Source of the DNA: Candidatus Dormiibacterota bacterium
GTDB taxonomy: Bacteria > Chloroflexota > Dormibacteria > Aeolococcales > Aeolococcaceae
Direction of reading: 5' to 3'
Assembly (NCBI GenBank): GCA_963808125.1
Contig: CAWEEP010000074.1
Location: 116-64,115 of the forward strand
DNA: 64,000 nt
The translations under genes were made by a program, and so were the position numbers. Under the pieces are notes generated by a model that saw only the letters and a program-made list of their open reading frames with translations, did not search any database and was not told the origin of the DNA. Within the stretch, counting starts at the first letter, position 1. Each line of letters starts with the position of its first letter. Positions 4,843-40,477 of the stretch are shown in pieces.

Positions 4843-6432
4843 CTAGTTCTTGACGAAGATGACGGCGAAGCCGTCGTCATAGACGCGGGTCCACTGCGGG
4901 TCCACGGTGAGCGCCATGGTGAGCGAGGAGTCGGTCCGCTCGACGACGTAGTCCACCCGGTTGCTGGCCAGGATCTGCTGCCAGTCTGGCTCCGCGTTCT
5001 CGACGTCACTGATCTCCTGCACCAGGTTGTTGCCCATCAGTGTGGCCTCGCCATAGATGAAGACGCGGCGGTCGGTCAGAGGGACGTCGCCGTTGCTGGA
5101 GGGGGAGAAGCGGTAGGCGAGGTAGCCGCCCCAGTCGTAGGCGTTGAACATCCGGGTGCCCACATCGGGGTGCGCCGCCAGCCAGCTGGCCGCCCCCTCT
5201 GGGAAGTTGGCCCGGGTGCTCGCCGCCTGACCCTGGAGGGTGTCCACGACGACGGCACCGGTCACCGCCACGGAGAGCATCAGGGCGAACGTCGCCAGGG
5301 CGGTGAGGTCCTGCCGGCGCCGGCCGGTGTAGGCGGCGAACCGCGGCTGCCAGGTGCTGGCGGCCCAGCCGGCTCCCAGTCCCCAGGCGATGACCGGGAC
5401 GACCGCGCAGACGGCGATGGCGCCGTTGCGCACTGCGGCGAGGGCGAGGACGATGCTCGCCGTGGCCACGCAGACGTCCCAGAGGCGCTGCCGCCGCGCG
5501 GCCACTGCCCAGACGGTGAAGAGGAGCATCAGCCCCAGCCCCCACTCCTCGGGCGAGTGGAAGTTGGGCGACTTCCACTCGGCGATGAAGCCCTGCTGCG
5601 CCGAGCTGAACTGGATGTGCAGGGGGATGAGATAGACGCTGATGGTGTGCGGGTTGATCAGTGCCGTCAGGAAGGAGGCGCCGAGCACCACCCACAGGCC
5701 CAGCGCGCGCCGCCGCGACTCCGCCTTCTCACCGGTGAACGCCCAGCGGGCCGATTCGGTGACGGCGGCGAGACCGACGAAGAACAGGCCGTAGACGAAC
5801 CCACCGTGCAGGTTCGCCCAGATCACCATCACGGCCGGCAGCCAGAAGAGGCGGTGGCTGCGATCGCGTAGGTACGCCTCGATCCAGTAGAGGGTCAGGC
5901 CGAGGAGGGCGAAGCTGATCATCTGCGACCGCGGCCCCCAGACTGCGACGCCCGCCGCCGCTCCGACCAAGAGGCAGACGGCGGCGATGACCGGCGGCGT
6001 GCGCTCCAGGGCGATACGCCGCCAGATCAGCCACATGCCGGTCCAGATCACCGCCGTGTAGACGAGGCTGACGGCGAGGAAGCTGCCGGCGCGGAAGACG
6101 AGGGCGAGGAGGATCTCGCTGCCCCACTCCTGGTCGGCCCACGAGTGGCCGCTCACCGTGTAGGTGAAGAGGTCGTGGGAGGGGAGTGCCCCGTGGCTGA
6201 GCATCCACTGCCCGGTCGCCAGGTGCCAGTAGAAGTCGGGGTCGCCGACCCTTCGGCAGATCACCACCAGCACCCCGATCAACGCCGCAGCGACGATGAG
6301 GCCGCCGATACCTGGGCGGCGGATGCGTCCCCAGAGCTTCGCCGCGGTGGGGGCGCCCTCTCGTGCGGGGGCGGCGGTGATCACGGACGGAGTGACGCCA
6401 CCCTCTGTGGCGGGCTCCTCTGCTGGCGCCAT
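4843..6432 (-). CDS. polytopic membrane protein, GT-C-type glycosyltransferase-like
   Basis: 529-aa intact ORF with many TM segments. N-terminal DPDFYWHLATGQWM, loop WANLHGGFVYG, and a soluble C-terminal domain. The architecture is typical of uncharacterised GT-C/ArnT-like enzymes. Confidence 0.6.
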   Translation of the reverse strand: MAPAEEPATEGGVTPSVITAAPAREGAPTAAKLWGRIRRPGIGGLIVAAALIGVLVVICRRVGDPDFYWHLATGQWMLSHGALPSHDLFTYTVSGHSWADQEWGSEILLALVFRAGSFLAVSLVYTAVIWTGMWLIWRRIALERTPPVIAAVCLLVGAAAGVAVWGPRSQMISFALLGLTLYWIEAYLRDRSHRLFWLPAVMVIWANLHGGFVYGLFFVGLAAVTESARWAFTGEKAESRRRALGLWVVLGASFLTALINPHTISVYLIPLHIQFSSAQQGFIAEWKSPNFHSPEEWGLGLMLLFTVWAVAARRQRLWDVCVATASIVLALAAVRNGAIAVCAVVPVIAWGLGAGWAASTWQPRFAAYTGRRRQDLTALATFALMLSVAVTGAVVVDTLQGQAASTRANFPEGAASWLAAHPDVGTRMFNAYDWGGYLAYRFSPSSNGDVPLTDRRVFIYGEATLMGNNLVQEISDVENAEPDWQQILASNRVDYVVERTDSSLTMALTVDPQWTRVYDDGFAVIFVKN

Positions 6433-6673
6433 CCCGGAGTCACCCTCCTGCGCGACATCGTGGTGGTGGGGCGAAACTCGCTCGCGCCCACCCGCGTGCT
6501 GGCCGGCCTCCCCCCAAACCGGCCGGTCCCGCCGGCCACCGGAGGAGGCCGGGCAATGATACGGTCTGCGCCCTGGGCAGCCATGGCGGTCGGCCGGGCG
6601 CTAACCGCTCCGCAGGGTTGCGCAATGATCATGCCGTTCGGCTCCTCCGGTCCCTCCTCGAGCTGAGGGCGGG

Positions 6674-8323
6674 GTGCCCGGCACGGAGGCGACGGAGGAC
6701 GCGGTGGGACTGTCCGGAAGCCCGGGCACGCACGATGCAGCCGCCCCGGGGCGCCATCCCCCCCCCACCTCCCGGGGCGAGGGTCCGGCGGCGTCTGGCG
6801 CGGGAGGCTGGTTCCGCCGATGGCTGTGGTTCATCGGGCCCACCGCGGTCTATTGCGTCCTTCGAATCCCCTCGTTCTTCGAGCCCCACTGGTACACGGA
6901 CGAGGCGGGCTACGTCGCCACTGCCCGCTCCATGCTGCAAGGGAAGACCCTCTACGCCCAGATCTGGAACAACAAGCCACCCCTGCACTTGTGGACCGTC
7001 GCCATCCTCATCAAGTTCTTCGGCACGAGCGAGGCGGCGCTCCACTCGCTGACCTTCGTCAGCGGGCTCCTCACCCTCGCCGCCGTCGCCTACGCCTGCG
7101 ACAAGGTCCTCGGACGCCGCCGCACTGCCTTCGCGCTCCTGCTCACGGCCGTGCTCCTGGGGACGCCGATCCTCGATGCGGAGCTGCTCATCCCCGAGAG
7201 CCTGCTCATCGCCCCCGTCACCTGGGCCGGGGCGATCCTCCTCCGGCGGTTCGCCGAGCCGGACGCGCGGGCCTGGCCCCGCTGGCCCGTCGCGGTGGGA
7301 GCGCTCGTGGCCGTCGCCATCGCCTACCAGCAGACCGCGCTGGCGGAGGCCTGCGCCTTCGGTTTCATCCTGCTCGTCACCTCGCGAGGCAACTGGCGGC
7401 GCTTCACCGCCTACGCCGCCACCGTGGCGGCGCTGACCGCCGCATGGCTGATCCCAACCGCGGTCTCCGTCGGGGCGTCCACCGTCGCCTACGCCCTCGC
7501 CGGGTTCTACGTCCATTTCACCCAGGGCAACTGGGACGGGCCGGTCGGCGTCCTTCTGCATCTGGTCGCCATCGTCGCCGCCTTCTGCCTGCTGGTTGTC
7601 TGCGCTTGGTTCCGCCGGCATGATCGGGACCCGGCCTGGGCACTCTGGTTCTGGTCGGGCGCCGCCCTCCTCGTCCCCTTCATCGCTCGCCAGCCCTATC
7701 CCCACTACCTGCTCCCCTCCGCGGTGCCGGTGACCATGGCCGTGTGTAGCCTCCGCTCCGTCCGCAGCTGGGGCGTCAGCCTGACCCAGAGGCTCACCGC
7801 CGCCGGGCTCCTCGCCGCGACCGCCCTGGTCATCCCGGCCGCCGCCATCACCGGGTTCAACTGGATCCCGTGGCCGGGGATCTCGACGCTGAGCCTGGCT
7901 ACCTACTACGGCGGCGCCGTCCTCGTGGCCACCGGCGCGCAATCGGACCAGTCCTGGCAGAACGAGTTCGACGCGAGGGTCCCAGAGGATCGGGCTGCCG
8001 CCTCGTGGATCACCAACCACGGGCTCGAGGGCACCTCCGCCGTCATCTGGTCGGCCGACGTCTGGCTCTACACCATCGATGACTTCAGCGTGATCATGCC
8101 GACCCCTCCCATCTACAACGATGCGGTGCTGCTGGGCAGCTGGGACGCGACGGCTCAGCGCATCGCCGCCCTCGATCCCGTGATCGTGGTCACCGAGGGG
8201 ACGACGATCTCGGCCTACCCGCAGATCCAGCCCCTTCTCACGAGCGCCTACCAGGCCTGTGAGCAGAACGGCTCCGAGATCGTGTGGGTGCGGAACGACA
8301 TCGCGCGGGCGCTGCCCGGCTGA
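6674..8323 (+). CDS. ArnT/PMT-like (GT39/GT83-type) membrane glycosyltransferase
   Basis: 549-aa ORF. It has EPHWYTDEAGYVATARSM near the first loop, an Asp/Glu-containing motif typical of GT-C enzymes, and more than 10 TM segments. The start is uncertain: a C10 tract at 6768..6777 lies between candidate starts. Confidence 0.65.
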   Translation: MPGTEATEDAVGLSGSPGTHDAAAPGRHPPPTSRGEGPAASGAGGWFRRWLWFIGPTAVYCVLRIPSFFEPHWYTDEAGYVATARSMLQGKTLYAQIWNNKPPLHLWTVAILIKFFGTSEAALHSLTFVSGLLTLAAVAYACDKVLGRRRTAFALLLTAVLLGTPILDAELLIPESLLIAPVTWAGAILLRRFAEPDARAWPRWPVAVGALVAVAIAYQQTALAEACAFGFILLVTSRGNWRRFTAYAATVAALTAAWLIPTAVSVGASTVAYALAGFYVHFTQGNWDGPVGVLLHLVAIVAAFCLLVVCAWFRRHDRDPAWALWFWSGAALLVPFIARQPYPHYLLPSAVPVTMAVCSLRSVRSWGVSLTQRLTAAGLLAATALVIPAAAITGFNWIPWPGISTLSLATYYGGAVLVATGAQSDQSWQNEFDARVPEDRAAASWITNHGLEGTSAVIWSADVWLYTIDDFSVIMPTPPIYNDAVLLGSWDATAQRIAALDPVIVVTEGTTISAYPQIQPLLTSAYQACEQNGSEIVWVRNDIARALPG

Positions 8324-13596: not shown

Positions 13597-13818
13597 GCTC
13601 CTCAGGAGCGCCGCGGCCCTTTCCGGGGAGGGCCTTGGCGTCCGAGAGGCGGCTCGCCACGGCCGTCGCGTCCAGCAGGAGAGACTGCGCCCGGACGTCA
13701 GCGGCCTTGGCGCCCGGCGTGGAAGCTGACGCGAACGCCGTCGGCGCTGTCTCGAACTCACCCGCCCTCGCGGTCGTGGACGGTCCGGCCCGCCGGTTGC
13801 TACCCTTGAGCCCAACGC

Positions 13819-14514: not shown

Positions 14515-14569
14515 TCGATCCATCCATGCCCCTCAGGCCGGGTGCGGAAGCGACGGTCGAGCCTCCCGG

Positions 14570-15141: not shown

Positions 15142-15384
15142 CGTCTCGCGGGAGTATAGGTCAGCCCCGAGCGCCGTTTCCAGAGGTGACGATGCTCCAG
15201 CGAGGGATGGCGGCGCCGACCCGTCGGCAACCGCGGCGTGCGGTGCTGATCGGCGTCTCCGGAGGCGGGCACCTCTGTTCCTGGAGGCGATCAGGGGTGT
15301 TGGTCCCCCGGTCGGTTGGGGCCTGCGTCCCGCCGCTCGGCAGGCGGCTCCCTGGCCAAGTGGCCGGCAACGAAGGCTGTCGCC

Positions 15385-21300: not shown

Positions 21301-24040
21301 GCCACGCCTGATGTGCGAGGAAGGTGATGCCGAGTGCCACCTGGGCCGCCGCCAGGGCGATGTCCCGGTTCACGGCTCGAAGGTGGCTGCGCTTGGAGAT
21401 GCCCTGCCGTTGCCGTCGCAGACCACCCGGGATGGGCACTGCCGCCGGGAGGATCACCGTGATGAGGACGAAGGCGGTCCACAGGCCGGCCGAGACCCCG
21501 GGCAGGGTCCAGGCCGCGACCAGCGTGGCCAGTGTGAGCGGCGCCAGCGCCGTCCGCCGGAGGTTGTCCACCATCTTCCACCGGGAGATGGCGGGGATCG
21601 AGCCCACGCTTCGCCGGCCGGCGGCGTCGCGGGCCCGGCCGACGATCCAGGGCAGGAGTTGCCAGTCACCCCTCGCCCATCGGTGCTGGCGGGCGGCTGA
21701 GACCAGGTAGTTCGAAGGGAATTCGTCGAAGAGCTCGACATCGGTGACGAGCCCGGCCCGCGCGAATGCCCCCTCGAACAGGTCATGGCTCAGCAATGCG
21801 TTCTCGGGGACCCGACCCGCCATGGCCGCCCCGAAGGCGTCGAGATCGTAGATGCCCTTGCCGGTGAAGCTGCCTTCCCGGAAGAGGTCCTGGTACACGT
21901 CGGAGACCGCGGAGGCGTACGGGTCGATCCCGGCCGACCCGGAGAAGCTGCTTCTGAAGATCGAGGTTTCGCGCTCCGACGGGAGCGTCGGGGTGATGCG
22001 CGGCTGGAGGAGACCGTAGCCCTCGGTCACCCGGCCGAGCCGCGCATCGAAGGTCGGCCGGTTGAGGGGGTGGGCGATGGTCCCGACAAGGCGTCCCACC
22101 GCGCCCCGGGGCAGCCGGGTGTCGGCGTCGAGCACGACCACGTAGCGCACCCCTTGAGGCGGCGTCGACGACGCCCGCCCGGTGGTCAGGATGCCGGTGG
22201 TGGCCGAGCCGTGGAGGAGGGCGTTCAGTTCGTGCAGCTTCCCGCGCTTGCGCTCCCAGCCCATCCAGCAGCCTTCGGACGCGTTCCAACTCCGCTTCCT
22301 GTGGAAGAGCAGGAAGCGTGCCCCTCCCCCTGGGATCTCGCCATGGCGCTCGTTGAGCCGGTCGATTGCCGCCGCCGCGGTCGAGAGGAGGTCATCGTCG
22401 CCGGGGACATCCTGGGTCGGCGAGTCGAGCCAGTCGGACAGCAGAGCGAACCGGACGTCGCCCTCACCGTTGCCCAGGTAGTGGACCTCGAGGCGGCCGA
22501 CCTGCGCCTCGATGTCCGCGTCACTGGTGAGAAGCGTCGGCACGACGACGAGCGTGCGCAGCTGGGACGGCACGCCCTCGTCGAGATCGAGCCGGGGCAG
22601 TGCTGTTGGGCCGATGACCTTGGTGAGCGCCCAGTTGACGAGGGCGATGGCGAGGTCGGCGGCCGGGGCGACGGCCAGGATGGCGAGGACGACGATGCCG
22701 GCAACGGAGGGGCCTCGATTCCTGGACAGGAGGATTGGCACGGCGAGGATGAGCGCCGTGACGAGGGCGAAGGTTCCGAGGTAACCACGCGTGGCCGCCC
22801 GGATGTAGGCACGCCGCACTCGATCCGCTGCCGGCACCCGAACACGCAGGGAACGCTCGAATGCGGGGCGGCCGTCGGAGATCAGGTAGTAGGTGGGATC
22901 CCGCAGCCGAACGGCGTGCGACGGGGCGGCACCGTCGTCAGACGGCGCTTCGTCCGCCATCGCCACGGCCAAGCGGCCGACCTCGACCTCGCCGCGGCCC
23001 GAACCTCGCGCCAGTTCCTCCACAGCGTGCCGGCAGCGATCTCTGGTCGCGAAATCCATCTCCGCGAAGGAATCGCGGGCGCTCAGCACGTCGTCGACCA
23101 GGCTGACGCCCTCGACGAACTGAGCCCAGTCGAACCAGGAGATGAGGCGCATGCTCGTGATCACGTTCCGGACGGTCACGTTCATGGTCGCCTGGCGCTG
23201 ATGCTCCAGTCGGACCATCTCCTCGGCGGTGGTCCCCTCGGCGGCCAGAACCTCCTCCTGCCAGCGGAGGGTGGGGGAGACTGCCGGATCCTGATCGCGC
23301 AGGCGCTGGAAGAGCTGAACCCGGGCCTCCTTCGGGAGCGCCGCCGGGGAGAGACGGCGGAGAGCTGCGCTGGCGACCTCTGGTTTGTCCTTGCCCACGC
23401 CGAGGAGGCTGTCGGCGAGCTCGTCGACGGCCTGCCGCACCGCCCGGCTGCGGACGATCTGGTCGGCGACCCGGCGGAGATTGTCGACGAGGAGGATGCG
23501 GAGGCTGATCGCGATCGCCCAGAGCTCGCCGATGGTGAGCGGTGTGACCTCCTGGTACGCGCGCACCATGCGCCGCAGGCTCTCCGGGTCGAAGCGGCTG
23601 TCCGTGTGCGCGATGTAGGCCCAGGCGAGCCCCATGACCCTGGGGTAGCCGGCGAGATGACCCTCACCGAGCTTGGGGAGCACGCGGTAGTAGTCCGGGG
23701 GCAGGTCGTCGCGGATCTCGCGGAGCTGCTCGTCGACGATGGGGAAGTTGTCGACCAGCCATTCGGCGGCCGGCGTGATCGAACGCTCGTCCTTTATAGC
23801 CCTGGCCAGGATGCGGTACGACTCCAGCAGAACGCGGCCGTTGTCGGCCGTGCGGGGCCAAGCGGCGTGCCCCCGGCGTGGCGCGTCGGTGACCGTTTGC
23901 GCCAACGCAAGGGTCCGGGCGTGCTCCTCGAGCCGCTCCACGCTGAAGAGTTCCGCGAGGATCGTCTCCTCGATCGGCGGCTGCGGGCGAGCCCGTCGGC
24001 GATCACCGGACAGCTCTCGCAAGGGCTGCGTCGATCTCAC
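15385..24040 (-). pseudogene. ndvB: cyclic beta-1,2-glucan synthase (NdvB/Cgs type: GT84 glycosyltransferase + GH94 phosphorylase); about a dozen frame changes confined to 15940..16880
   Basis: ORF 16334..24040 is intact for about 2390 codons and has an NdvB-like N-terminus (AEWLVDNFPIVDEQLREIRDDLPPDYY), a TM-embedded GT domain and a large central region. GH94 blocks continue in alternating frames: [148 protein letters not shown] ... WTWYTGSAGWMY, down to the stop at 15385. Confidence 0.88.
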
Positions 24041-24306
24041 CCTCGCATTGCTCGCTGATTGTCGAAACGTGACGTTGCAGAGGTGGGCGTGAACTCTTGC
24101 CGGTCGGACCGCTGCAGGTGGAGCCGCAAAGTGGTCAGTTGGAGCCCAATGGAACTCGCCTTGCGTCCGGACCGTCGCTCGAATCGGCGCGCCCGTGGAT
24201 GCCCGGGATCACGATGAGGTCGGCGGGGGATGCCGCGACGCCCCTCCGGGGGTGCAACGCGAAGGCGACGACGACGACGCCCACGCCGCCGGTGCGCCCT
24301 AGTCGG

Positions 24307-25234: not shown

Positions 25235-25310
25235 TGGCTGGGGAGGTAGGATTCGAACCTACGATTGGCTGATCCAGAGTCAAGCTGCCTTACCACTTGG
25301 CCACTCCCCA
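25235..25310 (-). tRNA. tRNA-Gln (anticodon CUG), CCA encoded; apparent 1-nt insertion in the anticodon stem
   Basis: Reverse complement TGGGGAGTGGCCAAGTGGTAAGGCAGCTTGACTCTGGATCAGCCAATCGTAGGTTCGAATCCTACCTCCCCAGCCA. Acceptor TGGGGAG/CTCCCCA (U1:A72), discriminator G, T-arm GTAGG-TTCGAAT-CCTAC, loop CTCTGGA. The stem GCTTGA/TCAGC becomes a perfect GCTGA/TCAGC if one T is removed. Confidence 0.9.
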
Positions 25311-25455
25311 GCGGCGCTGGCGAGTTTACCCGTCCCCCCTGCCGGGCAGGATCCCCACAAGCGCGCCGGCCCGGGCCCCGTGGGGGCCCGGCGCTCTCGC
25401 CGGCCGCCCATTAGCTCGGTTGGATGAACCGTCCCCCGGGCATATACTGGGTTTT

Positions 25456-25797
25456 ATGGACCTCGCCGAGCTGCTCAGATCGCATGCCCGCCGCTATCGC
25501 TGCGCCCAATGCGGAGGGAACATGGCGGATTGCGGCATCAACGTGATCGCCCAGCAGGGCAACCGCGCCCTGGTCCGCGTGACCTGCCCCACCTGCAACG
25601 ACGAGAACCTGCTCCAGATCATCTTCCAGACCGAGGGCGACGCCTCGGCGGGCGACGCTCGGGAGGCGTCCAGCGCCAGCCTTGACGAGGGCTACCCGGC
25701 GGTCACCGGGCCCATCACCGGGGACGAGGTCCTGGAAGTCCACGAGTTGCTGGCGGGCCACGCTGGCAGCCTCGGGGAGCTGCTCGCCCGGCGCTGA
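25456..25797 (+). CDS. hypothetical zinc-ribbon protein
   Basis: Internal ATG of track ORF 25297..25797, preceded by an AT-rich stretch. Contains CAQCGG ... CPTCND. Confidence 0.55.
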   Translation: MDLAELLRSHARRYRCAQCGGNMADCGINVIAQQGNRALVRVTCPTCNDENLLQIIFQTEGDASAGDAREASSASLDEGYPAVTGPITGDEVLEVHELLAGHAGSLGELLARR

Positions 25798-25843: not shown

Positions 25844-26628
25844 TCACCGACGCCGGTTGGCCGCCGCCCTCCTGTCGGGCAGCGATCGCCGGATCCGAAG
25901 GCGGAAGACGAAGAGTTCCTTGATGGCACGGGCGATGGCCGCGGTCGCGCGCCGGAGCGTCGCCCCGCGACGCGGGGGTGATGGGGGATGGGGGCCTGGG
26001 CGATCCGCCAGCCCGCGTAGCGCGCCTTGTAGTAGAGCTCGGCGTTGATCAGGGCGCTGTGCGCCTCCAGGGTCACGGAGTTGAGGACCTCGCGGCGCAT
26101 CAGCTTCAGAGCGCAGTCCACGTCCCGGTAGGGAAGCCGGTAGAGGATGGCGACCAGGGTGTTGAAGACCCAGCTGACGACCTCGCGGGCGCGTGCATCC
26201 TGGCGCTTCTCCCGCCATCCCGCCGCCAGGTCGGCGCGGTCGAGAAGCGGGGCGAGCCGCGCGATATCGGCGATCTCGAATTGCCCGTCGGCGTCGGTGA
26301 AGGCGACGAAGTCGCCGGTGGCGGCACGCAGGCCGTCCCCCACCGTGGCGCCGTAGCCGCTCTTCTGCTTGTGACGGACGATGGTGAGCCGCAAGCCCAG
26401 CTCCGCCGCCAGAGCGGTCGCGGCGGCGCCACTGCCGTCTGTGCTTCCGTCGTCCACGATGACCACGTCGTAACGGACGGCGATGGTGGGCAGCACGTCC
26501 GCGGCGTGGGGCAGCAGCCAGCGGAGGTTCTCCACCTCGTTGTGGACGGGGAGCACCAGCGTCAGGCCGCTGAGGAGCGGCCCGCTCGGTTGCCCGGCGG
26601 GCTCGCTTTCGGGTTGCGCGGCGGTCAC
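25844..26628 (-). CDS. GT2 glycosyltransferase, polyprenol-phosphate sugar synthase (DPM/DPG-synthase-like); one frameshift near 25965-25980
   Basis: LTLVLPVHNEVENL, VVIVDDGSTDGS, FTDADGQF, DVDCALKLMRREVL. The C-terminal amphipathic tail TLRRATAAIARAIKELFVFRLRIRR lies in ORF 25844..26218. The GTG start overlaps the sqdB stop (GTGA). Confidence 0.8.
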
Positions 26629-27836
26629 CCCGTGATGGCGGTGGCGAGCGGCGGAGCGGCGGGCTCCCCCGTGTAGAGGCCGCCGCCCTTGCGCCAGTCG
26701 ACCTTCGCGTCGACGGTGTTCCGCCGCACCCTGTGGATGTTCGTCTCCACCGTCTGGACGACGCTGTCGATGAGCGTGTCGCTCAGCGAGTGCGGCTCCA
26801 GGCCGAGGTCGAGGAGGTGCTGGTGCTTGGCGTTGTAGTAGTGCTCCTCCTTCTCCCGCCGCGGGTTCTCGACGTGGTGGATCGTGGTCGGCAGCCCGTG
26901 AGCGGCGCGCGCGTGGGCCACCTTCTCCGCCAGACCCAGCACCGAGAACTGCTCGGTGAACTGGTTGTAGACGCGGTACTCCCCCGCCGCCGGCGGGTTG
27001 AGGGATGCCAGTTCGATGCAGCGCACCGTGTCCCGGATGTCCAGGAAACCCCTCGTCTGCCCGCCTTTGCCGTAGACGCTGAGCGGCTCGCCGATTGCCG
27101 CTTCGACGCAGAAGCGGTTGAGCACGGTTCCCCAGATGCCGTCGTAGTCGAAGCGGGTGGTCAGGTCGGGATGCAGCGCCGTCTCGGCGGTGGTGATCCC
27201 GTACACGACCCCCTGGTTCAGGTCGGTGGCCCGCAGATCCCAGATGCGGCAGCCGAAGTCGAGGTTGTGGCTGTCGTGCACCTTGGACAGGTGGTAGACC
27301 GATCCCGGCTGCTTCGGATAGAGCATGCGATCGTGGCGCCCGTTGTGGTCGACTTCGAGGAAGCCCTCCTCGATGTCGATGTTGGGGGTGCCGTACTCGC
27401 CCATCGTGCCCAGCTTGATGAGGTGGCACTGAGGGGCGCGGTCGCGCAGGGCATAGAGCAGACGGAGAGTGCCGACGACGTTGTTGACCTGCGTCTCCAC
27501 GCCGTGCCGGGGGCTGATCATCGAGTACGGAGCGGAGCGCTGCTCGGCGAAGTGGACGACGGCGTCGGGCGGGGAGGCGCCGATGAGCTCGTCCAACGCT
27601 CCCTCGTCGCAGAGGTCGAACTCGTGCCATTCGATGGTCCGCCCGCTCACCTCGTGCCAGCGGGCAAGCCGCTCCGCCATGGAGGCGATGGCCACCAGGC
27701 TGTCGGTGCCGCACTCGACGTCCCAGTGCCGGCGGATCAGGCTATCGACGGCCACGACGTCGTGCCCACGTGCGGACAGGTGCAGGGCCGTCGGCCATCC
27801 GAGGTATCCGTCGGCACCCAGGACCACGATGCGCAT
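26625..27836 (-). CDS. sqdB: UDP-sulfoquinovose synthase (SQD1/SqdB)
   Basis: 403-aa intact ORF, near-collinear with plant and cyanobacterial SQD1 as I recall it. GADGYLGWPTALHLS, HFAEQRSAPYSMI, LGTMGEYGTPNIDIEEGF, YPKQPGSVYHLSKVHDSHN, RATDLNQGVVYG, VYGKGGQTRGFLDIRDTV, YNQFTEQFSV, EEHYYNAKH. Confidence 0.92.
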   Translation of the reverse strand: MRIVVLGADGYLGWPTALHLSARGHDVVAVDSLIRRHWDVECGTDSLVAIASMAERLARWHEVSGRTIEWHEFDLCDEGALDELIGASPPDAVVHFAEQRSAPYSMISPRHGVETQVNNVVGTLRLLYALRDRAPQCHLIKLGTMGEYGTPNIDIEEGFLEVDHNGRHDRMLYPKQPGSVYHLSKVHDSHNLDFGCRIWDLRATDLNQGVVYGITTAETALHPDLTTRFDYDGIWGTVLNRFCVEAAIGEPLSVYGKGGQTRGFLDIRDTVRCIELASLNPPAAGEYRVYNQFTEQFSVLGLAEKVAHARAAHGLPTTIHHVENPRREKEEHYYNAKHQHLLDLGLEPHSLSDTLIDSVVQTVETNIHRVRRNTVDAKVDWRKGGGLYTGEPAAPPLATAITG

Positions 27837-27838
27837 CC

Positions 27839-28792
27839 TCAGATCTCCCGGTTGGCCAGCCTTGAGGTGGCCGATGATGGCGGCTCGGCGAAGTACCGGT
27901 AGGTCTCCGCGAGGCCCTGCTCAAGTGAAGTTTGCGACTCCCAGCTGAGCCGCCGCTGAGCGCGGTCGCTGTTCAGGCAGGCCCGCGCCACCTCTCCGGG
28001 CCGCGCCGGCAGCATCTCGGGCTGGAGCGGCTGCCCCGACGCCCGGACGAGCTCGGCGACGATGTCGCGGACGTTCGTCTCCCGGCCGGTCCCCACGTTC
28101 ACTGGCCCGCTCTCAGTCGCCGTCAGCGCGGCCCGGGTGGCCCGGGCGACGTCGCGAACGTAGATGAAGTCGCGGGTCTGGAGACCGTCGCCGTAAATCA
28201 CCGGCCGCAGCCCCTGGGTCAGCCGGGTGGCCGAGATGGCCACCACACCGGCCTCACCGGTCCCGTCCTGACGGGGTCCGTAGACGTTGCCGTAGCGCAG
28301 GGCGATGGTGCGCAGGCCCCGGCGGCGGTAGGTCCAGAGGTAGGTCTCCTCGCACAGCTTCTCCGTGCCGTAAGCGGACATGGGCGCCGGCACCAGGTCC
28401 TCGGAGGCGGGGAGATGCTCCGCCTCGCCGTAGATGGCTCCGCCCGAGGAGGCGATGACGATCGCCTCGCACCCCGCCTGCGCCGCCGCCTCGAAGCAGC
28501 CGACCGAACTGGCGAGGACCCGGCGCACGTGGTCGCCGGGGTCGCGGAGGGCCCGGTTGACACCACCCTTGGCGGCGAGGTGGACCAGGGTCTCGGGTTT
28601 GAAGCGCAGGAGCGCCTCCGCCGCCTCCGGGCCGCCGGCGTCCGCCACCAGCATCTCGACGGCTCCGGGGAGGCTGACGCCGCAGGGATGGGAGAGATCG
28701 TCGATCACCAGGACGGCCAGTCCGTCCGCGGCCAGCATCTCGACGAGGTGGCTGCCGATGAACCCGGCGCCGCCGACCACGGCCACACGCAT
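27839..28792 (-). CDS. NAD-dependent sugar epimerase/dehydratase (UDP-glucose 4-epimerase-like SDR)
   Basis: MRVAVVGGAGFIGSHLV, the SAYGTEK catalytic YxxxK, RYGNVYGPRQ, RDFIYVRDV. Its ATG overlaps the upstream gene's stop (ATGA). Confidence 0.85.
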   Translation of the reverse strand: MRVAVVGGAGFIGSHLVEMLAADGLAVLVIDDLSHPCGVSLPGAVEMLVADAGGPEAAEALLRFKPETLVHLAAKGGVNRALRDPGDHVRRVLASSVGCFEAAAQAGCEAIVIASSGGAIYGEAEHLPASEDLVPAPMSAYGTEKLCEETYLWTYRRRGLRTIALRYGNVYGPRQDGTGEAGVVAISATRLTQGLRPVIYGDGLQTRDFIYVRDVARATRAALTATESGPVNVGTGRETNVRDIVAELVRASGQPLQPEMLPARPGEVARACLNSDRAQRRLSWESQTSLEQGLAETYRYFAEPPSSATSRLANREI

Positions 28793-29892
28793 CACGGCTG
28801 GTTCCCGGCGGGGAGGCTGGGACGGCCCAGGACGAGGAGGCCGATGGCGCCGGCGATGCCCAGGGGGAGTGTCGTCGCCAGGCGCAGCAGGATGGTGATG
28901 GCGGCGGCGCTGACGGCGCCCATCCCCGCCGCGGTCAGCAGGCTGATGACCACCACATCGGTGGCACCGAGGCCGAAGGGGAGGGTGGACACGCTGCCCG
29001 CTAGCTGGGACAGGCAGTAGGCGGACACGGCCACCCACAGGGCCAGGCCGGCTCCGACCCCCCAGGCGATGAGGAGGATCTGGAAGCCGCTGAGCAGGAA
29101 TACCCCGAGCGTCAGGGAGGTGAAGACGGCCGCGACGCGGAACGAGAGGCCGAGATCCTGGAGGCGGACCACGGCTCGGAGGACCCCCGCCACGATCCCC
29201 GAGCGCCCGTCCGAGTACTCGGACCGGTGAAGTCTCTGGGTCAGGATGCTCAACCACCAGGGGGCGAGGAGGACCGCGACGGCGACGGCCGAGAGGCCCG
29301 CGACGGCTGCGGCGGGGAGGAACACTGCGGCGGCGAGCCAACCACCGAGAACGCCCATCTGGAAGACGGTGACCAGCCTCTCGTAGAGGACGGAGGCGAC
29401 CCCTGAACTCACCGGCACACCATCCCAGTTGCGCCACATGTAGGGCCGCACCATGTCCCCCGCGGCGGCGGGGGTGAGCCAGCTGAGAGTCTGACCGGCG
29501 AGCTGGGCCCCGGCCATGCGCAGCCAGGGCACCCGGTAGCCGAGCCGGTCAACCAGGAACTGCGAGCGCCAGGCACGCAGCGCGCTGATCGGGATGTTGA
29601 GGGCGATCGCCAGCCACACGCGCGACCAAGCCACGTGCCCCGACTTCTGGATGACCAGGGCGGGATTGACCTTCTGGAACAAAGCCACGATCACCCCAGC
29701 GCTGATCAGCAGGACGATGAACTGAAAGACGGCGAGGAGGAGGCGGCGCCGGGTCAGCCACTGCCGGGGCATTGGGGAGGTCGGGGCGGCGATCGAGGTG
29801 GCGGTCGCGGCAACGGCACGTTCGCTCGTCCGCCCGTCGCCGGAGCTGCCCTGGCGGCGCAAGGTGGCGTCGCACGAAGCCTTGGTGGCCAA
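28792..29892 (-). CDS. flippase-like / lysyl-PG-synthase-TM-like (UPF0104) membrane protein
   Basis: Eight or so TM segments. RRRLLLAVFQFIVLLISAGVIV, LSWLTPAAAGDMVRP. This family commonly accompanies GT2 polyprenol-P glycosyltransferases. The start is uncertain (TTG at 29892 or ATG at 29772). Confidence 0.6.
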   Translation of the reverse strand: MATKASCDATLRRQGSSGDGRTSERAVAATATSIAAPTSPMPRQWLTRRRLLLAVFQFIVLLISAGVIVALFQKVNPALVIQKSGHVAWSRVWLAIALNIPISALRAWRSQFLVDRLGYRVPWLRMAGAQLAGQTLSWLTPAAAGDMVRPYMWRNWDGVPVSSGVASVLYERLVTVFQMGVLGGWLAAAVFLPAAAVAGLSAVAVAVLLAPWWLSILTQRLHRSEYSDGRSGIVAGVLRAVVRLQDLGLSFRVAAVFTSLTLGVFLLSGFQILLIAWGVGAGLALWVAVSAYCLSQLAGSVSTLPFGLGATDVVVISLLTAAGMGAVSAAAITILLRLATTLPLGIAGAIGLLVLGRPSLPAGNQP

Positions 29893-30414: not shown

Positions 30415-30489
30415 TCGGCGCGGCGGATCGGTGCCGGTCGGGTGCGGCCGTGCCTTCCCCTCGAGCGGCGACGTGGCTATGCTCGGGGC

Positions 30490-31515
30490 GTGGACCTGCG
30501 TGTGCTCGGCCGGACGGGCGTCAGGGTGAGCAAGCTCTGCCTCGGCGCGATGATGTTCGGCTCCTGGGGGAACCCGGATCGCGGCGAGTCGATCCGGATC
30601 ATCCACCGCGCTCTGGACGGCGGCATCAACTTCGTCGACACCGCCGACGTCTACTCCCAGGGCGAGTCGGAGGAGATCGTCGGCGAGGCGCTCGCCGGCG
30701 GCCGCCGGGACCAGGTCGTGCTGGCGACGAAGGTGCACATGCCGATGGGCGACGACCCCAACGCCCGGGGGAACTCCAGGCGCTGGCTCATCCGGGAGTG
30801 CGAGAACAGCCTCCGGCGGCTGCGCACGGACTGGATCGACCTCTACCAGATCCATCGCCCCGATCCCGGCTGCGACATCGACGAGACGCTGGGAGCGCTG
30901 GCCGAGCTGGTCAGGGCGGGCAAGGTGCGTTCCATCGGCAGCTCGACCTTCCCCGCGTCGCAGATCGTCGAGGCGCAGTGGGTCGCGGAGCGCCGTGGAA
31001 GGGAGCGCTTCGTCTGCGAGCAGCCCCCCTACTCCATCCTTGTCCGCGGCATCGAGGCCGAGGTGCTCCCCGTGTGCCAGGCGTACGGAATGGGGGTGAT
31101 CACCTGGAGCCCGCTGGCGGGCGGGTTCCTCTCGGGCCGGTACGGGGGGAAGGGGAAGGCGCCCGCCAGCTCCCGGGCCGGGCGCCTGCCCCACCGCTAT
31201 GACCTGGCGCTGCCCGCCAACCGGCGCAAGCTCGAGGCGGTCGATGCCCTGACGCAGCTCGCCGCCGACGCCGGCATCAGCCTCATCCACCTCGCCATCG
31301 CCTTCGCCGTCCAGCACCCGGCGGTGACCGCGGCGATCATCGGCCCCCGCACCATGGAGCACCTGGAGAGCCAGCTGGGCGCCGCTGAGGTGACCCTCGA
31401 CGAGGCGACCCTCGACCGCATCGACGAGATCGTCCCTCCCGGGGTGTCGCTCAACCCGGCCGACACCGGCTGGCTGCCCCCCTCCCTGGTCGAGACGGGG
31501 CTGCGCCGGCGCTGA
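30490..31515 (+). CDS. aldo/keto reductase
   Basis: VLGRTGVRVSKLCLGAMMFG, INFVDTADVYSQGESEEIVGEAL, DLYQIHRPD, GSSTF, PPYSIL. GTG at 30490; the track start at 30442 is the alternative. Confidence 0.88.
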   Translation: MDLRVLGRTGVRVSKLCLGAMMFGSWGNPDRGESIRIIHRALDGGINFVDTADVYSQGESEEIVGEALAGGRRDQVVLATKVHMPMGDDPNARGNSRRWLIRECENSLRRLRTDWIDLYQIHRPDPGCDIDETLGALAELVRAGKVRSIGSSTFPASQIVEAQWVAERRGRERFVCEQPPYSILVRGIEAEVLPVCQAYGMGVITWSPLAGGFLSGRYGGKGKAPASSRAGRLPHRYDLALPANRRKLEAVDALTQLAADAGISLIHLAIAFAVQHPAVTAAIIGPRTMEHLESQLGAAEVTLDEATLDRIDEIVPPGVSLNPADTGWLPPSLVETGLRRR

Positions 31516-39481: not shown

Positions 39482-40477
39482 GTGACGGGGGGCCCCACCC
39501 CCGGCCGGAGCGGGCCCCCGGTGCCGCTAGTCGTCGCCACCCACGGCGACGACGGTTCGATGCTGCCCTACTACGGCTACCGTGTCGCCGAGGCCCTGGT
39601 CAGGGTCCTGCACCGCCGCGCCGCCTACGTTCTGGGGGTGGCCTGCGCCGACACGGTGCGCCTGGTCCGCCCAGGCTCGGTGCGGGCGCTGCGCTGGAAT
39701 CTCTCGCACGTGCTCCCCGGCGCCAGCCCCCGCGAGTTGCGCAGGGTGGTCCGCAAGAATCTGCGCGACCAGGCGCGCTTCTGGGTCGACGTCATCAGCA
39801 TGCGCTTCGAGGGCGAGGGCATCCGCGGGGGGCTCACCGTCGGGGAAGGCGGGCGGGAGCGATACCAGGCGGCGCTGGCAACCGGGAGAGGCGTCGCCGT
39901 CATCTCCCTGCACCTCGGCAGCTGGGAGCGGGGGCTCGCCGCCGGCAACAATCTCGGCTACCCGCTGGCCCTGCTCGCCGAGTACATGAGGCCGCGCAAG
40001 CTCTTCGACCGGGTGGTGGGCGCTCGAGTGGCGCAGGGCGTCCACGTCGTCCCCATCGACATCGCCGGCATCCGCATTGCCGACGAGGCCACCGCCCGGC
40101 GGCTCGGCGCGGCGGCCATGCGGGACGTGTTCCGCATCCTCAAGAGCGGCGGTGCCATCGCCCTGGCCATGGACCGCGACCTCATCGGCAACGGCGAGCT
40201 CTATCCGTTCTTCGGCGCCCCGGCACCCATTCCGGTCGGGGTCGTCGACGCTGCCATGCGGGCGGGATCGATCGTCATGCCTGTCTTCCTTCCCCGCATC
40301 CCGGGTGGGGTGGAGGTCCACATCGGCCCGGAGATCCCCTATGACGCCGCCGCCCCCCACGCCGACGAGGTCCACCGCGTGGTGATGGAGATCCTCGCCG
40401 TCTTCGAGAAGGTGATCGGCGACCATCCCGAGCAGTGGCACGTCCTCGATCCCATCTGGGAGATGCCGGAAGGATGA
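39482..40477 (+). CDS. lysophospholipid/lauroyl acyltransferase family protein (PIM acyltransferase PatA-like by context)
   Basis: VISLHLGSWERG (HX4D-type region; here H..E), AMDRD, and the position between ino1 and pimA. The start is uncertain (GTG at 39482 or ATG at 39560). Confidence 0.65.
   Translation: MTGGPTPGRSGPPVPLVVATHGDDGSMLPYYGYRVAEALVRVLHRRAAYVLGVACADTVRLVRPGSVRALRWNLSHVLPGASPRELRRVVRKNLRDQARFWVDVISMRFEGEGIRGGLTVGEGGRERYQAALATGRGVAVISLHLGSWERGLAAGNNLGYPLALLAEYMRPRKLFDRVVGARVAQGVHVVPIDIAGIRIADEATARRLGAAAMRDVFRILKSGGAIALAMDRDLIGNGELYPFFGAPAPIPVGVVDAAMRAGSIVMPVFLPRIPGGVEVHIGPEIPYDAAAPHADEVHRVVMEILAVFEKVIGDHPEQWHVLDPIWEMPEG

What the first reader, a model, noticed from the sequence alone, without database searches (positions are those of the whole stretch)
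25844..29892. UDP-sulfoquinovose synthase operon with a polyprenol-phosphate-type GT2 and a flippase-like protein instead of a known SQDG synthase
Four minus-strand genes are translationally coupled. The flippase-like, epimerase and GT2 junctions overlap (ATGA, GTGA), and sqdB follows the epimerase after 2 nt. The order is flippase-like UPF0104 membrane protein, SDR epimerase, SqdB (unambiguous SQD1 motifs) and a DPM/DPG-synthase-like GT2. Established knowledge: known bacterial sulfolipid pathways pair sqdB with SqdX (GT4) or SqdD/SqdC to make sulfoquinovosyl-diacylglycerol. In Sulfolobus the SQD1 homologue Agl3 feeds sulfoquinovose into a lipid-linked N-glycan. Inference: the GT2 plus flippase-like partnership suggests that sulfoquinovose, or a derivative, is loaded onto a polyprenol phosphate and exported. 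It would then decorate an envelope glycan, protein or lipid, possibly via GT-C enzymes such as the two at 4843..8323. That would be an atypical bacterial use of UDP-SQ.
Basis: partly seen in the sequence, partly recalled or inferred. Interest (0 to 1): 0.6.

Follow-up and report, generated by a model that had tools for sequence, protein, structure and literature searches.

The report
Lipid-carrier sulfosugar glycosylation operon, Dormibacteria
An uncultured soil bacterium (class Dormibacteria) keeps the enzyme that makes the sulfur sugar sulfoquinovose in one operon with a lipid-carrier sugar-loading enzyme, a sugar epimerase and a flippase-like protein, which points to a sulfonated sugar being attached to the cell surface rather than built into the classical plant-type sulfolipid; this is predicted, not shown.

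Summary
The four minus-strand genes and their junctions are real: GTGATG overlap, a 2-nt gap, and a GTGA overlap. The same-genus genome G155 has it intact, so this is probably an assembly error.

SqdB is about 60% identical to Arabidopsis SQD1 and keeps T145/Y182/H183/K186. The GT2 has no TM helix, and its nearest solved relatives are ArnC, DPMS and GtrB.

Main new evidence:
- Homologues of this GT2 occur fused in frame to PMT_2 GT-C domains. In two metagenome contigs such a fusion follows sqdB directly.
- In 151 Dormibacteria genomes, sqdB and this GT2 lineage co-occur almost perfectly and are adjacent in 55 of 77 sqdB-positive genomes.
- The window's GT-C (6674-8323, ArnT-like fold) has its best homologue beside the sqd cluster in several relatives.
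- Other Chloroflexota pair sqdB with a GT4 instead. No SqdX-like or GT8 gene was found in this genus.

One change: the operon's epimerase is a specialised GalE paralogue that travels with the GT2, so the sugar carried may be sulfofucose, the C4 epimer.

The scan has noted the same kind of operon in about 44 other genomes. No paper describing it was found.

The parts
28792..29892 (-). Flippase-like membrane protein of 366 aa from the TTG start (UPF0104 / LPG_synthase_TM, the MprF flippase-domain family). It has no MprF synthase domain.
   Evidence: PF03706 E 6.8e-31 over residues 58-348. TIGR00374 68.6 bits; MprF equivalog only 30.7 bits against a cut-off of 600. It has multiple hydrophobic segments. 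The TTG start preceded by GGGGAGA is conserved in G155 and G290.
27839..28795 (-). GalE-type nucleotide-sugar 4-epimerase (317 aa from ATG 28792; an in-frame GTG lies at 28795). It belongs to a paralogue group (E1) that is specific to the operon.
   Evidence: PF01370 E 1e-46. Best solved relatives are UDP-hexose 4-epimerases: 4zrm 5e-59, 2p5u, 7ys8, 6wjb. The SSGG...YGTEK (S/YxxxK) motif is present and no dehydratase TDE motif is seen. A second GalE-like paralogue, 41% identical, lies on contig C51. E1 orthologues (at least 46% identity) sit next to the GT2 in relatives, whereas the 40-46% paralogue also occurs in sqdB-negative genomes.
26625..27836 (-). SqdB, UDP-sulfoquinovose synthase (403 aa).
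   Evidence: E 2e-149 against the Arabidopsis SQD1 structures 1qrr and 1i24, aligned end to end. GTMGEYG and YHLSK are identical, so T145, Y182, H183 and K186 are kept. NF041015 gives 467 bits, E 3e-140, below its cut-off of 575.
25844..26628 (-). GT2 glycosyltransferase of the DPM1/ArnC/GtrB/PpgS type (about 261 aa when intact). It has no TM helix and a basic amphipathic C-terminal helix. As assembled it is frame-shifted.
   Evidence: PF00535 E 1.7e-23. PDB sequence matches: ArnC 5e-15, DPMS 1.6e-8, GtrB 2e-5. AF2 model of the G155 orthologue: pLDDT 88; Foldseek finds ArnC 3e-16 (TM 0.71), DPMS 1.5e-14 (TM 0.72), GtrB 2e-13, then GpgS 2e-10. Conserved motifs are VDDGS.D, DADGQF, DVDCALK and HHPR..G.RSGAR. 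No TM segment was found.
25941..25946 (-). Site of a 1-nt deletion (GGG to GG) that shifts the GT2 reading frame. It is probably an assembly or sequencing error.
   Evidence: Alignment with G155, which is 92% identical in DNA here. Indel list against G155. The intact G155 ORF reads ...SGARPRAIARAIKELFVFRL.... Other single-base indels against G155 lie in tRNA-Gln (25283) and otsA (34415).
6674..8323 (+). GT-C-fold membrane glycosyltransferase (PMT_2, ArnT-like), the candidate extracytoplasmic transferase of the pathway. It lies 18 kb from the operon in this genome.
   Evidence: PF13231 33.8 bits, cut-off 26.1. AF2 pLDDT 78; Foldseek top hit is ArnT 5f15 at 2e-7 (TM 0.56), and nearly all other matches are GT-C enzymes. 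A conserved D76-E77 lies in an ...HWYTDEAGY... loop. It is the only homologue in its own genome. Its best homologue lies beside the sqd or GT2 cluster in G074, G029 and G164, and homologous PMT_2 GT-Cs flank the GT2 in G322, G262, G251, L132 and L133.
4843..6600 (-). Polytopic membrane protein of unnamed family, divergent from the GT-C gene. Whether it belongs to the system is uncertain.
   Evidence: No Pfam or NCBIfam match. About 10 hydrophobic segments. The nearest named Atlas clusters are PMT_2, Dpy19 and STT3 at 0.91-0.92 with about 140 shared features, which is a weak lead. Two tandem homologues lie next to a GT2 paralogue in another Dormibacterota genome, L098.

Best explanation
The operon encodes the cytoplasmic half of a lipid-carrier ('three-component') glycosylation route for a sulfonated sugar.

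1. SqdB makes UDP-sulfoquinovose from UDP-glucose and sulfite. This is inferred from about 60% identity to SQD1 and conserved catalytic residues.
2. The operon's own GalE paralogue may convert UDP-sulfoquinovose to its C4 epimer, UDP-sulfofucose. This step is inference, roughly even odds.
3. The TM-less GT2 docks on the membrane through its basic amphipathic C-terminal helix and transfers the sulfosugar to a polyprenyl phosphate. This is inferred from fold, family similarity and gene fusions.
4. The MprF-type flippase-like protein moves the charged lipid-linked sugar to the outer leaflet. This is inferred from operon membership and from the AglD (GT2+UPF0104) precedent.
5. An ArnT/PMT-like GT-C enzyme, here probably the gene at 6674..8323, transfers the sugar to an envelope acceptor (protein, wall glycan or lipid) that is not identified.

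The frameshift in the GT2 gene is most likely an assembly error, not a pseudogene.
For: **1. SqdB**
- E 2e-149 against SQD1, with T145, Y182, H183 and K186 conserved.

**2. GT2 class**
- PDB by sequence: ArnC, DPMS, PcManGT (6yv7) and GtrB are the best matches.
- By fold: ArnC, DPMS and GtrB take all the first 19 ranks.
- The only NCBIfam models matched over the full length are ArnC, PpgS, AglJ and a dolichyl-P hexose transferase.

**3. Rosetta-stone fusions**
- Ten protein clusters have a 36-47% identical GT2 followed by a long C-terminal extension. A PMT_2 or PMT GT-C domain is on record for nine of them (seven also carry PF02366); in the tenth (P0121) my own scan finds PMT_2 just below cut-off. 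One further cluster has GtrA fused to the GT2. The in-frame domain order was checked in P0121, P0122, P0123 and P0126.
- In contig L147 the order is sqdB (68% identical to the window's), then the GT2::PMT_2 fusion, then a convergent epimerase (51% identical).

**4. Class survey of 151 Dormibacteria genomes**
- sqdB is present in 77.
- About 60 genomes carry a GT2 at least 47% identical, and all but G261 have sqdB.
- In 12 further sqdB-positive genomes (genus g127, G254 and G296) a 41-44% identical GT2 lies next to sqdB.
- The two genes are within 3.5 kb in 55 of 77 genomes, in several different arrangements.
- In family f52 they are unlinked yet both kept in 13 of 14 genomes (677 kb apart in the single-contig G322).

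**5. GT-C linkage**
- The best homologue of the window's GT-C sits beside the sqd or GT2 cluster in G074, G029 and G164. Homologous PMT_2 GT-Cs flank the GT2 in G322, G262, G251, L132, L133 and L052.
- Its model has an ArnT-like GT-C fold.

**6. Contrast with the classical pathway**
- In other Chloroflexota, sqdB is next to a GT4.
- No such GT4 above 33% identity was found in G000, G155, G173, G029 or G191.
- No GT8 was found in G000 or G155.

**7. Flippase precedent**
- UPF0104 proteins were predicted to be glycosylation flippases. They are fused to a GT2 in archaeal AglD and neighbour PMT/STT3-like genes (PMC5898192).

**8. Frameshift**
- It is a single G missing from a G-run relative to an intact congener. 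It sits alongside other single-base indels, in a tRNA and in otsA.
Against: - There is no biochemical evidence for any step.
- All NCBIfam scores of the GT2 lie far below the cut-offs (62 against 529 for ArnC), so it is not a member of any curated equivalog.
- GpgS, a soluble-acceptor enzyme, is nearly as close in TM-score: 0.67 against 0.71.
- The known substrates of MprF-type flippase domains are diacylglycerol lipids, not polyprenyl-P-sugars (established knowledge; PMC5898192).
- In this window the GT-C is 18 kb away, behind unrelated genes.
- Some relatives keep flippase-epimerase-GT2-GT-C operons without sqdB inside (G262, G164, L133). The GT2's donor could therefore be a non-sulfonated product of the epimerase.
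- G262 and G074 also carry SqdX-like GT4 genes, so UDP-SQ can have another sink in this class.
- The genome is 81% complete, so absences are weak evidence.
- As assembled, the GT2 gene is broken.
Confidence: 0.7

Rival explanations
1. The epimerase-GT2-flippase-GT-C module carries an ordinary 4-epimerised sugar (for example Gal, GalNAc, GalA or L-Ara) on the lipid carrier. SqdB merely shares the operon and feeds UDP-SQ to another, unidentified transferase.
For: The epimerase is linked to the GT2 more constantly than sqdB is. Operons of flippase-epimerase-GT2-GT-C without sqdB exist in G262, G164, L133 and G322. L052 has the GT2 plus a GT-C with no sqdB in the flanks examined. GT2 paralogues of 35-41% identity occur in sqdB-negative genomes.
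Against: All but one of about 60 genomes with a GT2 at least 47% identical also have sqdB. sqdB is inserted between the epimerase and the GT2 with a 2-nt gap and a GTGA overlap. sqdB lies directly upstream of GT2::GT-C fusions. No other candidate UDP-SQ transferase (SqdX-like GT4 or GT8) was found in this genus. A separate housekeeping GalE paralogue exists.
Confidence: 0.13
2. The GT2 is a diacylglycerol-directed sulfolipid synthase, a GT2 analogue of SqdX in the way that cyanobacterial MgdA is a GT2 glucosyl-DAG synthase. The MprF-like protein then flips SQDG to the outer leaflet.
For: No SqdX or SqdD homologue was found. MprF-type flippase domains are known to translocate DAG-based lipids (PMC5898192). 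In G029 a PlsC-like acyltransferase sits beside the GT2.
Against: The best relatives by sequence and by fold are polyprenyl-P enzymes, and no lipid-glycosyltransferase model matched at E <= 1e-5. In-frame fusions to GT-C domains and to GtrA, and constant GT-C neighbours, make sense only if the product is a polyprenyl-P-sugar donor.
Confidence: 0.07
3. The GT2 makes a soluble sulfoquinovosyl compound, a GpgS-like transfer to phosphoglycerate or glycerol, as a compatible solute or as an SQ-glycerol precursor that is later acylated.
For: GpgS structures match the model at TM 0.63-0.67 and NF010496 matches the N-terminal half. The protein has no TM helix. An SQ-glycerol route to SQDG exists in alpha-proteobacteria (bioRxiv 10.1101/2022.08.18.504050).
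Against: The GpgS similarity is weaker (E 2e-10 against 3e-16) and covers only part of the sequence. It does not explain the flippase-like gene, the GT-C neighbours or the GT-C fusions. The basic amphipathic C-terminal helix points to work at the membrane surface.
Confidence: 0.03
4. The GT2 gene is a true pseudogene in this organism and the pathway is decaying here.
For: As assembled, the reading frame is broken about 100 nt before the stop.
Against: It is a single base in a homopolymer. Both halves are 91-93% identical in protein to the intact G155 orthologue, and the frame-shifted tail keeps its sequence. The other three genes are intact. The window shows other single-base indels against G155, one of them in a tRNA. 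The reads could not be examined.
Confidence: 0.1

Closest known systems
ArnC / ArnE-ArnF / ArnT (undecaprenyl-P-L-Ara4(F)N pathway, lipid A modification)
   Same: The GT2 is closest to ArnC by both sequence and fold. The candidate GT-C is closest to ArnT by fold. The logic is the same: a specially made UDP-sugar is loaded on a polyprenyl phosphate, flipped, and transferred outside the membrane.
   Different: This GT2 lacks ArnC's two TM helices. The flippase candidate is UPF0104/MprF-like, not the SMR-like ArnE/F. The sugar is a sulfonate (anionic), not an amino sugar. The acceptor is unknown, and no LPS is expected in this lineage (own knowledge).
GtrA/GtrB/GtrC, CsbB/GtcA/YfhO and GacI/GacJ/GacK/GacL three-component glycosylation systems (PMC8035078, PMC11127046 listed)
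   Same: The division of labour is GT2, then flippase, then GT-C. One homologue of this GT2 is fused to a GtrA domain.
   Different: There is no GtrA or Wzx-type flippase in the operon. In this genome the GT-C is not in the operon. No member of these systems is known to carry sulfoquinovose or sulfofucose.
PpgS (Rv3631) / Rv3632 / Rv3779: polyprenyl-P-GalNAc route that puts GalN on mycobacterial arabinogalactan
   Same: The GT2 is short (about 240 aa) and TM-less. NF058614 (PpgS) matches the GT2 over nearly its full length at 45-48 bits. The donor is an epimerase-derived UDP-sugar and the final transfer is by a GT-C (own knowledge of the pathway).
   Different: The score is far below the PpgS cut-off (370). 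The sugar differs, and so does the flippase family.
Haloferax AglD/AglS and the archaeal UPF0104 neighbourhoods (Makarova et al. 2015, PMC5898192)
   Same: A GT2 and a UPF0104 flippase-like domain work together (fused in AglD), next to PMT/STT3-like membrane transferases. This is the only described context in which this flippase family is tied to polyprenyl-P-sugar glycosylation.
   Different: Here the two are separate genes in a bacterium, with sqdB and an epimerase between them. The flippase activity of UPF0104 in glycosylation is itself only predicted.
SqdB-SqdX (cyanobacteria), SQD1-SQD2 (plants) and SqdB-SqdD-SqdC + SqdA (alpha-proteobacteria): SQDG synthesis
   Same: The first enzyme is the same: SqdB is about 60% identical to SQD1.
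   Different: No GT4 SqdX/SQD2-type or GT8 SqdD-type transferase was found. Other Chloroflexota do keep sqdB next to a GT4. The 2026 review of SQ cycling lists only the SqdB-SqdX route (PMC13436972).
Agl3 of Sulfolobus acidocaldarius (SQ in an N-glycan) and the 6-C-sulfofucose N-glycan of Thermoplasma acidophilum
   Same: A sulfosugar is used for surface glycosylation rather than for a membrane lipid (PMC4388408; PMC12421959).
   Different: In Sulfolobus, SQ is added to a dolichol-pyrophosphate-linked glycan on the cytoplasmic side (own knowledge), not carried as polyprenyl-P-SQ. No SFuc biosynthetic genes are known (PMC12421959).

Membership tests
UDP-sulfoquinovose synthase (SQD1/SqdB/Agl3) | Extended SDR with full-length similarity to SQD1 | tested here: met
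   E 2e-149, residues 2-385 aligned to 3-386 of 1qrr.
UDP-sulfoquinovose synthase (SQD1/SqdB/Agl3) | Catalytic Thr145, Tyr182, Lys186 and His183 (SQD1 numbering) | tested here: met
   GTMGEYG and YHLSK are identical in the printed alignment.
UDP-sulfoquinovose synthase (SQD1/SqdB/Agl3) | Score above the curated NCBIfam cut-off (NF041015) | tested here: not met
   467 bits against a cut-off of 575. In the 14 control genomes the model passes its cut-off in only one, so it appears narrow.
UDP-sulfoquinovose synthase (SQD1/SqdB/Agl3) | Sulfite-dependent conversion of UDP-Glc to UDP-SQ | not testable with these tools
   This needs an enzyme assay.
Polyprenyl-phosphate glycosyltransferases of GT2 (DPM1/DPMS, GtrB, ArnC, PpgS) | GT-A fold with a DxD(xQ) motif, closest to this subgroup | tested here: met
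   DADGQF aligns with ArnC's DADLQN. Foldseek ranks 1-19 are ArnC, DPMS and GtrB.
Polyprenyl-phosphate glycosyltransferases of GT2 (DPM1/DPMS, GtrB, ArnC, PpgS) | Membrane-interface amphipathic helix or helices after the GT-A domain | tested here: met
   A conserved basic amphipathic helix spans residues 229-247.
Polyprenyl-phosphate glycosyltransferases of GT2 (DPM1/DPMS, GtrB, ArnC, PpgS) | C-terminal TM helices (GtrB, ArnC, archaeal DPMS) | tested here: not met
   No hydrophobic segment was found. This matches the TM-less members (PpgS, eukaryotic DPM1; own knowledge).
Polyprenyl-phosphate glycosyltransferases of GT2 (DPM1/DPMS, GtrB, ArnC, PpgS) | Score above any curated equivalog cut-off | tested here: not met
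   Best is ArnC at 62 bits against 529, then PpgS at 48 against 370.
Polyprenyl-phosphate glycosyltransferases of GT2 (DPM1/DPMS, GtrB, ArnC, PpgS) | Works with a GT-C enzyme that uses its product | tested here: met
   In-frame GT2::PMT_2 fusions and constant GT-C neighbours among homologues.
Polyprenyl-phosphate glycosyltransferases of GT2 (DPM1/DPMS, GtrB, ArnC, PpgS) | Transfer to polyprenyl phosphate | not testable with these tools
   This needs an assay with C55-P or decaprenyl-P.
Three-component extracytoplasmic glycosylation system | GT2, flippase and GT-C encoded together | tested here: inconclusive
   In this window the GT2 and a flippase-like gene are together, but the GT-C is 18 kb away. 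All three are adjacent in G074, L132, G262, G164 and L133.
Three-component extracytoplasmic glycosylation system | Flippase of the GtrA, ArnE/F or Wzx type | tested here: not met
   The operon protein is PF03706/TIGR00374. The AglD precedent exists only as a prediction.
MprF (lysyl-PG synthase/flippase) | Flippase TM domain plus a C-terminal aminoacyl-PG synthase domain | tested here: not met
   The protein is 366 aa with the TM domain only. NF033480 gives 30.7 bits against 600.
SQDG synthase pathways (SqdX/SQD2 GT4; SqdD GT8) | A GT4 or GT8 partner of sqdB present in the genome | tested here: not met
   The best GT4 is 27-31% identical to the sqdB-adjacent GT4s of other Chloroflexota, and at most 33% in G155, G173, G029 and G191. 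PF01501 was not found in G000 or G155. The genome is only 81% complete. That the reference GT4s are true SqdX was not verified.
GalE-type UDP-hexose 4-epimerase | Extended SDR with Ser/Tyr-x-x-x-Lys, closest to characterised 4-epimerases | tested here: met
   4zrm 5e-59, and the top six solved relatives are all 4-epimerases. TIGR01179 gives 145 bits, below its cut-off of 262.
GT-C glycosyltransferases (ArnT/PMT-like), for 6674..8323 | Polytopic GT-C fold with an acidic motif in the first outer loop | tested here: met
   PMT_2 is above cut-off. Foldseek finds ArnT at 2e-7 and then mostly GT-C enzymes. D76-E77 is conserved.

The most novel reading that the evidence does not exclude
The operon's specialised GalE paralogue is a UDP-sulfoquinovose 4-epimerase. 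The pathway would then make UDP-sulfofucose and polyprenyl-P-sulfofucose. That would be the first biosynthetic route to sulfofucose, for which none is known (PMC12421959). It would also make Dormibacteria, abundant in soils, a source of the sulfofucose that soil sulfofucolytic bacteria consume.
Probability: 0.3. Interest if true: 0.8.

Novelty: new variant of a known kind. Interest (0 to 1): 0.62.

Why it matters
[quoted passage not shown] Its biosynthesis in bacteria is described only as a step toward the membrane lipid SQDG (review PMC13436972).

A lipid-carrier route would be a second, non-photosynthetic use of the sugar. It would put a permanently anionic sulfonate on the cell surface of a major uncultured soil lineage. 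It would also add an unrecognised source of sulfosugars to the soil sulfur cycle.

The prediction can be tested directly with four genes that can be synthesised, using the intact G155 copy of the GT2.

If the epimerase acts on UDP-SQ, the operon would also answer the open question of how sulfofucose is made.

Tried and rejected
- **Complex prediction**, GT2 with the flippase-like protein: no verdict (score 0.00). It counts neither for nor against binding.
- **Genome-contig scan with the GT2 alignment**: 80 loci were kept and none had sqdB in its flanks. This says nothing about the sqdB link. The one close hit (L052, 54%) had a GT-C next to it.
- **Apparent GT2::GT-C fusion in G262**: a 787-codon open frame. 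On translation it proved to be an empty alternative frame over the GT2 gene. It is not a fusion and I do not count it.
- **The genome search on the records behind L132 and L133**: not held, so I could not look for sqdB elsewhere on the contig carrying L133.
- **PDB sequence searches** with the GT-C and with the flippase profile: no hits. The fold search was needed for the GT-C. The flippase-like protein was not folded.
- **E1-versus-E2 epimerase comparison**: six discriminating positions were found. Most are changes to smaller residues in E1, for example I to G, A to G and PH to GT. E1 gains no basic residue. Without a structure this is a lead only.
- **Thermoplasma acidophilum sqdB neighbourhood** (NP_394533, named in PMC4388408): this would test the sulfofucose idea, but I could not reach that genome with the tools.
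- **Identity of the sqdB-adjacent GT4 genes** of other Chloroflexota: I could not verify that they are true SqdX. NCBIfam has no SqdX model, and their best matches are other lipid GT4s.

Full report
**Observation**

The window has about 70% G+C. It belongs to a 2.35-Mb, 81%-complete MAG. Its GT2 homologues are labelled Candidatus Dormibacteria by their sources, which agrees with earlier notes of this scan.

Four minus-strand genes occupy 25844-29892:
- a 366-aa LPG_synthase_TM/TIGR00374 flippase-like protein;
- a 317-aa GalE-like SDR;
- a 403-aa SqdB;
- a GT2.

- GTGATG between the flippase-like gene and the epimerase, giving a 1-nt or 4-nt overlap;
- a 2-nt gap before sqdB;
- a GTGA overlap between sqdB and the GT2.

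The TTG start of the first gene, preceded by GGGGAGA, is conserved in two other genomes. Upstream lies a divergent aldo/keto reductase (window 30442-31515, by its sequence). Downstream lie a convergent small zinc-ribbon protein and tRNA-Gln.

**The frameshift**

Its first 227 codons and last 33 codons are in different frames.

The same-genus genome G155 is 92% identical in DNA here. It has one more G in a G-run and encodes an intact protein of 261 aa ending ...HHPRVAGRRSGARPRAIARAIKELFVFRLRIRRS.... This is the only net frame-breaking indel in the four genes.

The same comparison shows single-base indels in tRNA-Gln (25283) and in otsA (34415). I therefore read the GT2 break as an assembly error (about 0.9) rather than a pseudogene. 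I could not see the reads.

**What the proteins are**

- **SqdB** aligns end to end with Arabidopsis SQD1 (E 2e-149) and keeps T145, Y182, H183 and K186.
- **The epimerase** is closest to characterised UDP-hexose 4-epimerases (4zrm, 5e-59).
- **The GT2 family** is 240-261 aa long, has no TM segment, and carries invariant DADGQF, DVDCALK and HHPR..G.RSGAR motifs plus a basic amphipathic C-terminal helix.
  - By sequence its best solved relatives are ArnC, DPMS, PcManGT and GtrB.
  - A confident model (pLDDT 88) finds the same enzymes at ranks 1-19. GpgS follows at a TM-score only slightly lower.
  - The NCBIfam models matched over the full length all use polyprenyl or dolichyl phosphate, but every score is far below cut-off.
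- **The gene at 6674-8323** is a PMT_2 protein with an ArnT-like GT-C fold and a conserved DE loop motif.
- **Its divergent neighbour at 4843-6600** remains unclassified.

**Comparative evidence**

In a sample of 201 genomes of the phylum, sqdB occurs in 28.
- Outside the class, sqdB sits next to a GT4, the family of SqdX/SQD2.
- Inside the class, it sits with this GT2 and the epimerase.

In 151 genomes of the class:
- sqdB occurs in 77;
- about 60 genomes have a GT2 at least 47% identical, and all but one (G261) have sqdB;
- in 12 further sqdB-positive genomes (genus g127, G254 and G296) a 41-44% identical GT2 lies next to sqdB;
- the two genes lie within 3.5 kb in 55 of 77 genomes, in several arrangements;
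- in family f52 they are unlinked (677 kb apart in the single-contig G322) yet both retained in 13 of 14 genomes.

These genomes are kin, so the counts overstate independence.

A PMT_2-type GT-C lies beside the GT2 in G074, G029, G164, G322, G262, G251, L132, L133 and L052. In G074, G029 and G164 that gene is the best match in the genome to the window's GT-C.

The most telling evidence is the fusions. Ten protein clusters have a 36-47% identical GT2 followed by a long C-terminal extension. A PMT_2 or PMT domain is on record for nine, and one more cluster is a GtrA-GT2 fusion. The domain order was checked in four. In two metagenome contigs the fusion gene directly follows sqdB (68% identical in L147) and faces the epimerase (51% identical).

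A GT-C enzyme uses polyprenyl-phosphate-linked sugars. A fusion of this GT2 lineage to a GT-C, next to sqdB, is therefore hard to reconcile with a diacylglycerol or soluble acceptor.

**Absence of the classical partners**

The best own-genome match to the sqdB-adjacent GT4s is a generic GT4 at window 40474-41550 (27-31% identical). G155, G173, G029 and G191 have nothing above 33%. G074 has a 39% match elsewhere. No GT8 was found in G000 or G155. G262 has extra sqdB copies next to GT4s as well as a separate flippase-epimerase-GT2-GT-C operon, so both routes can coexist in the class.

**The epimerase and the identity of the sugar**

The class has two GalE-like groups:
- E1 is at least 46% identical to the operon gene. 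It is almost always beside the GT2 and is found mainly in sqdB-positive genomes. The exceptions are G261 and three g145 genomes.
- E2 is 40-46% identical and is also present in sqdB-negative genomes. In this genome it lies on contig C51.

E1 stays with the GT2 and GT-C even where sqdB is elsewhere (G322, G262, G164). That fits an enzyme acting after SqdB better than one that supplies UDP-glucose.

The C4 epimer of sulfoquinovose is sulfofucose. It is known from Thermoplasma N-glycans and fucoid algae and has no known biosynthetic pathway. A soil bacterium that grows on it was described in 2025 (PMC12421959). Whether the carried sugar is SQ or SFuc is open; I rate it roughly even, given the lipid-carrier reading. 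E1 and E2 differ at six conserved positions, mostly toward smaller residues in E1. This is a lead only.

**Flippase-like protein**

It belongs to the MprF flippase-domain family but lacks the synthase domain. The family was predicted to flip glycosylation intermediates in archaea, where it is fused to a GT2 in AglD and neighbours PMT/STT3-like genes (PMC5898192). Its role here is an inference from operon membership only.

**Literature**

Six searches found no paper that links sulfoquinovose to a polyprenyl-phosphate carrier, a GT-C enzyme or a three-component system in bacteria. A 2026 review describes only SqdB-SqdX.

**Earlier notes of this scan**

The scan has noted the same kind of operon before, on other DNA: 46 notes in about 44 genomes, several of them Dormibacterota. 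It has also raised the sulfofucose idea. I used those notes as leads only.

**Unpublished genomes**

G173 (loci L005, L033, L155) contributes one of the syntenic loci. The class tallies include G173, G224, G242, G258, G268, G269, G279, G303, G317 and G327. No conclusion depends on them alone.

**Verdict**

Among known systems it is a new variant of three-component glycosylation, carrying a sulfosugar.

Noticed in passing
window 25283 and 34415: Besides the GT2 frameshift, the window differs from its congener G155 by single-base indels in tRNA-Gln (an extra base at 25283) and in the otsA (GT20) gene (a missing base at 34415). This fits a low rate of assembly indels in this MAG.
   Followed up: partly
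L147:1770-4037 (protein P0122); also P0121, P0124-P0130, P0123: These are natural in-frame fusions of a GT2 of this lineage to a PMT_2/PMT GT-C domain (755-832 aa), plus one GtrA-GT2 fusion (507 aa). Single-chain 'load and transfer' enzymes of this kind may deserve their own study.
   Followed up: partly
L037:12537-13367 (G029): A PlsC-like acyltransferase (PF01553) lies directly beside the GT2 in the sqd cluster of one relative. It could hint at an acylated product. It was not seen in the other loci.
   Followed up: no
L138 and L139 (G262, contig C2) and G262:C9: One Dormibacteria genome has three sqdB copies, two of them next to GT4 genes. One of those GT4s is 39% identical to the SqdX-like GT4 of other Chloroflexota. 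The same genome also has a separate flippase-epimerase-GT2-GT-C operon.
   Followed up: partly
L133:6213-8348 and L136:5203-7302: A conserved 712-aa protein without any Pfam match lies next to the GT-C in two GT2 loci (62% identical between them). Its function is unknown.
   Followed up: no
L034:11866-13356 (G074): A DUF2079 membrane protein (PF09852, E 5e-49) sits between the GT2 and the PMT_2 GT-C in the G074 sqd cluster. It may be a second outer-face transferase.
   Followed up: no
window 25273-25797 (+): A small protein with CxxC...CxxC zinc-ribbon-like motifs and no Pfam match lies convergent to the GT2. It is conserved downstream of the operon in G155 (82% identical) and G290 (68%).
   Followed up: no
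window 13812-24212 versus L032:3807-6990: The giant NdvB-like cyclic-glucan synthase gene of the window (16334-24040) has no collinear counterpart of that size in the same-genus genome G155. The syntenic gap there is about 3 kb against about 10 kb here.
   Followed up: no
L098:9768-12742: Two tandem homologues of the unclassified membrane protein 4843-6600 lie beside a GT2 paralogue in another Dormibacterota genome. This is the only contextual hint that this family also works with a lipid-linked sugar.
   Followed up: no
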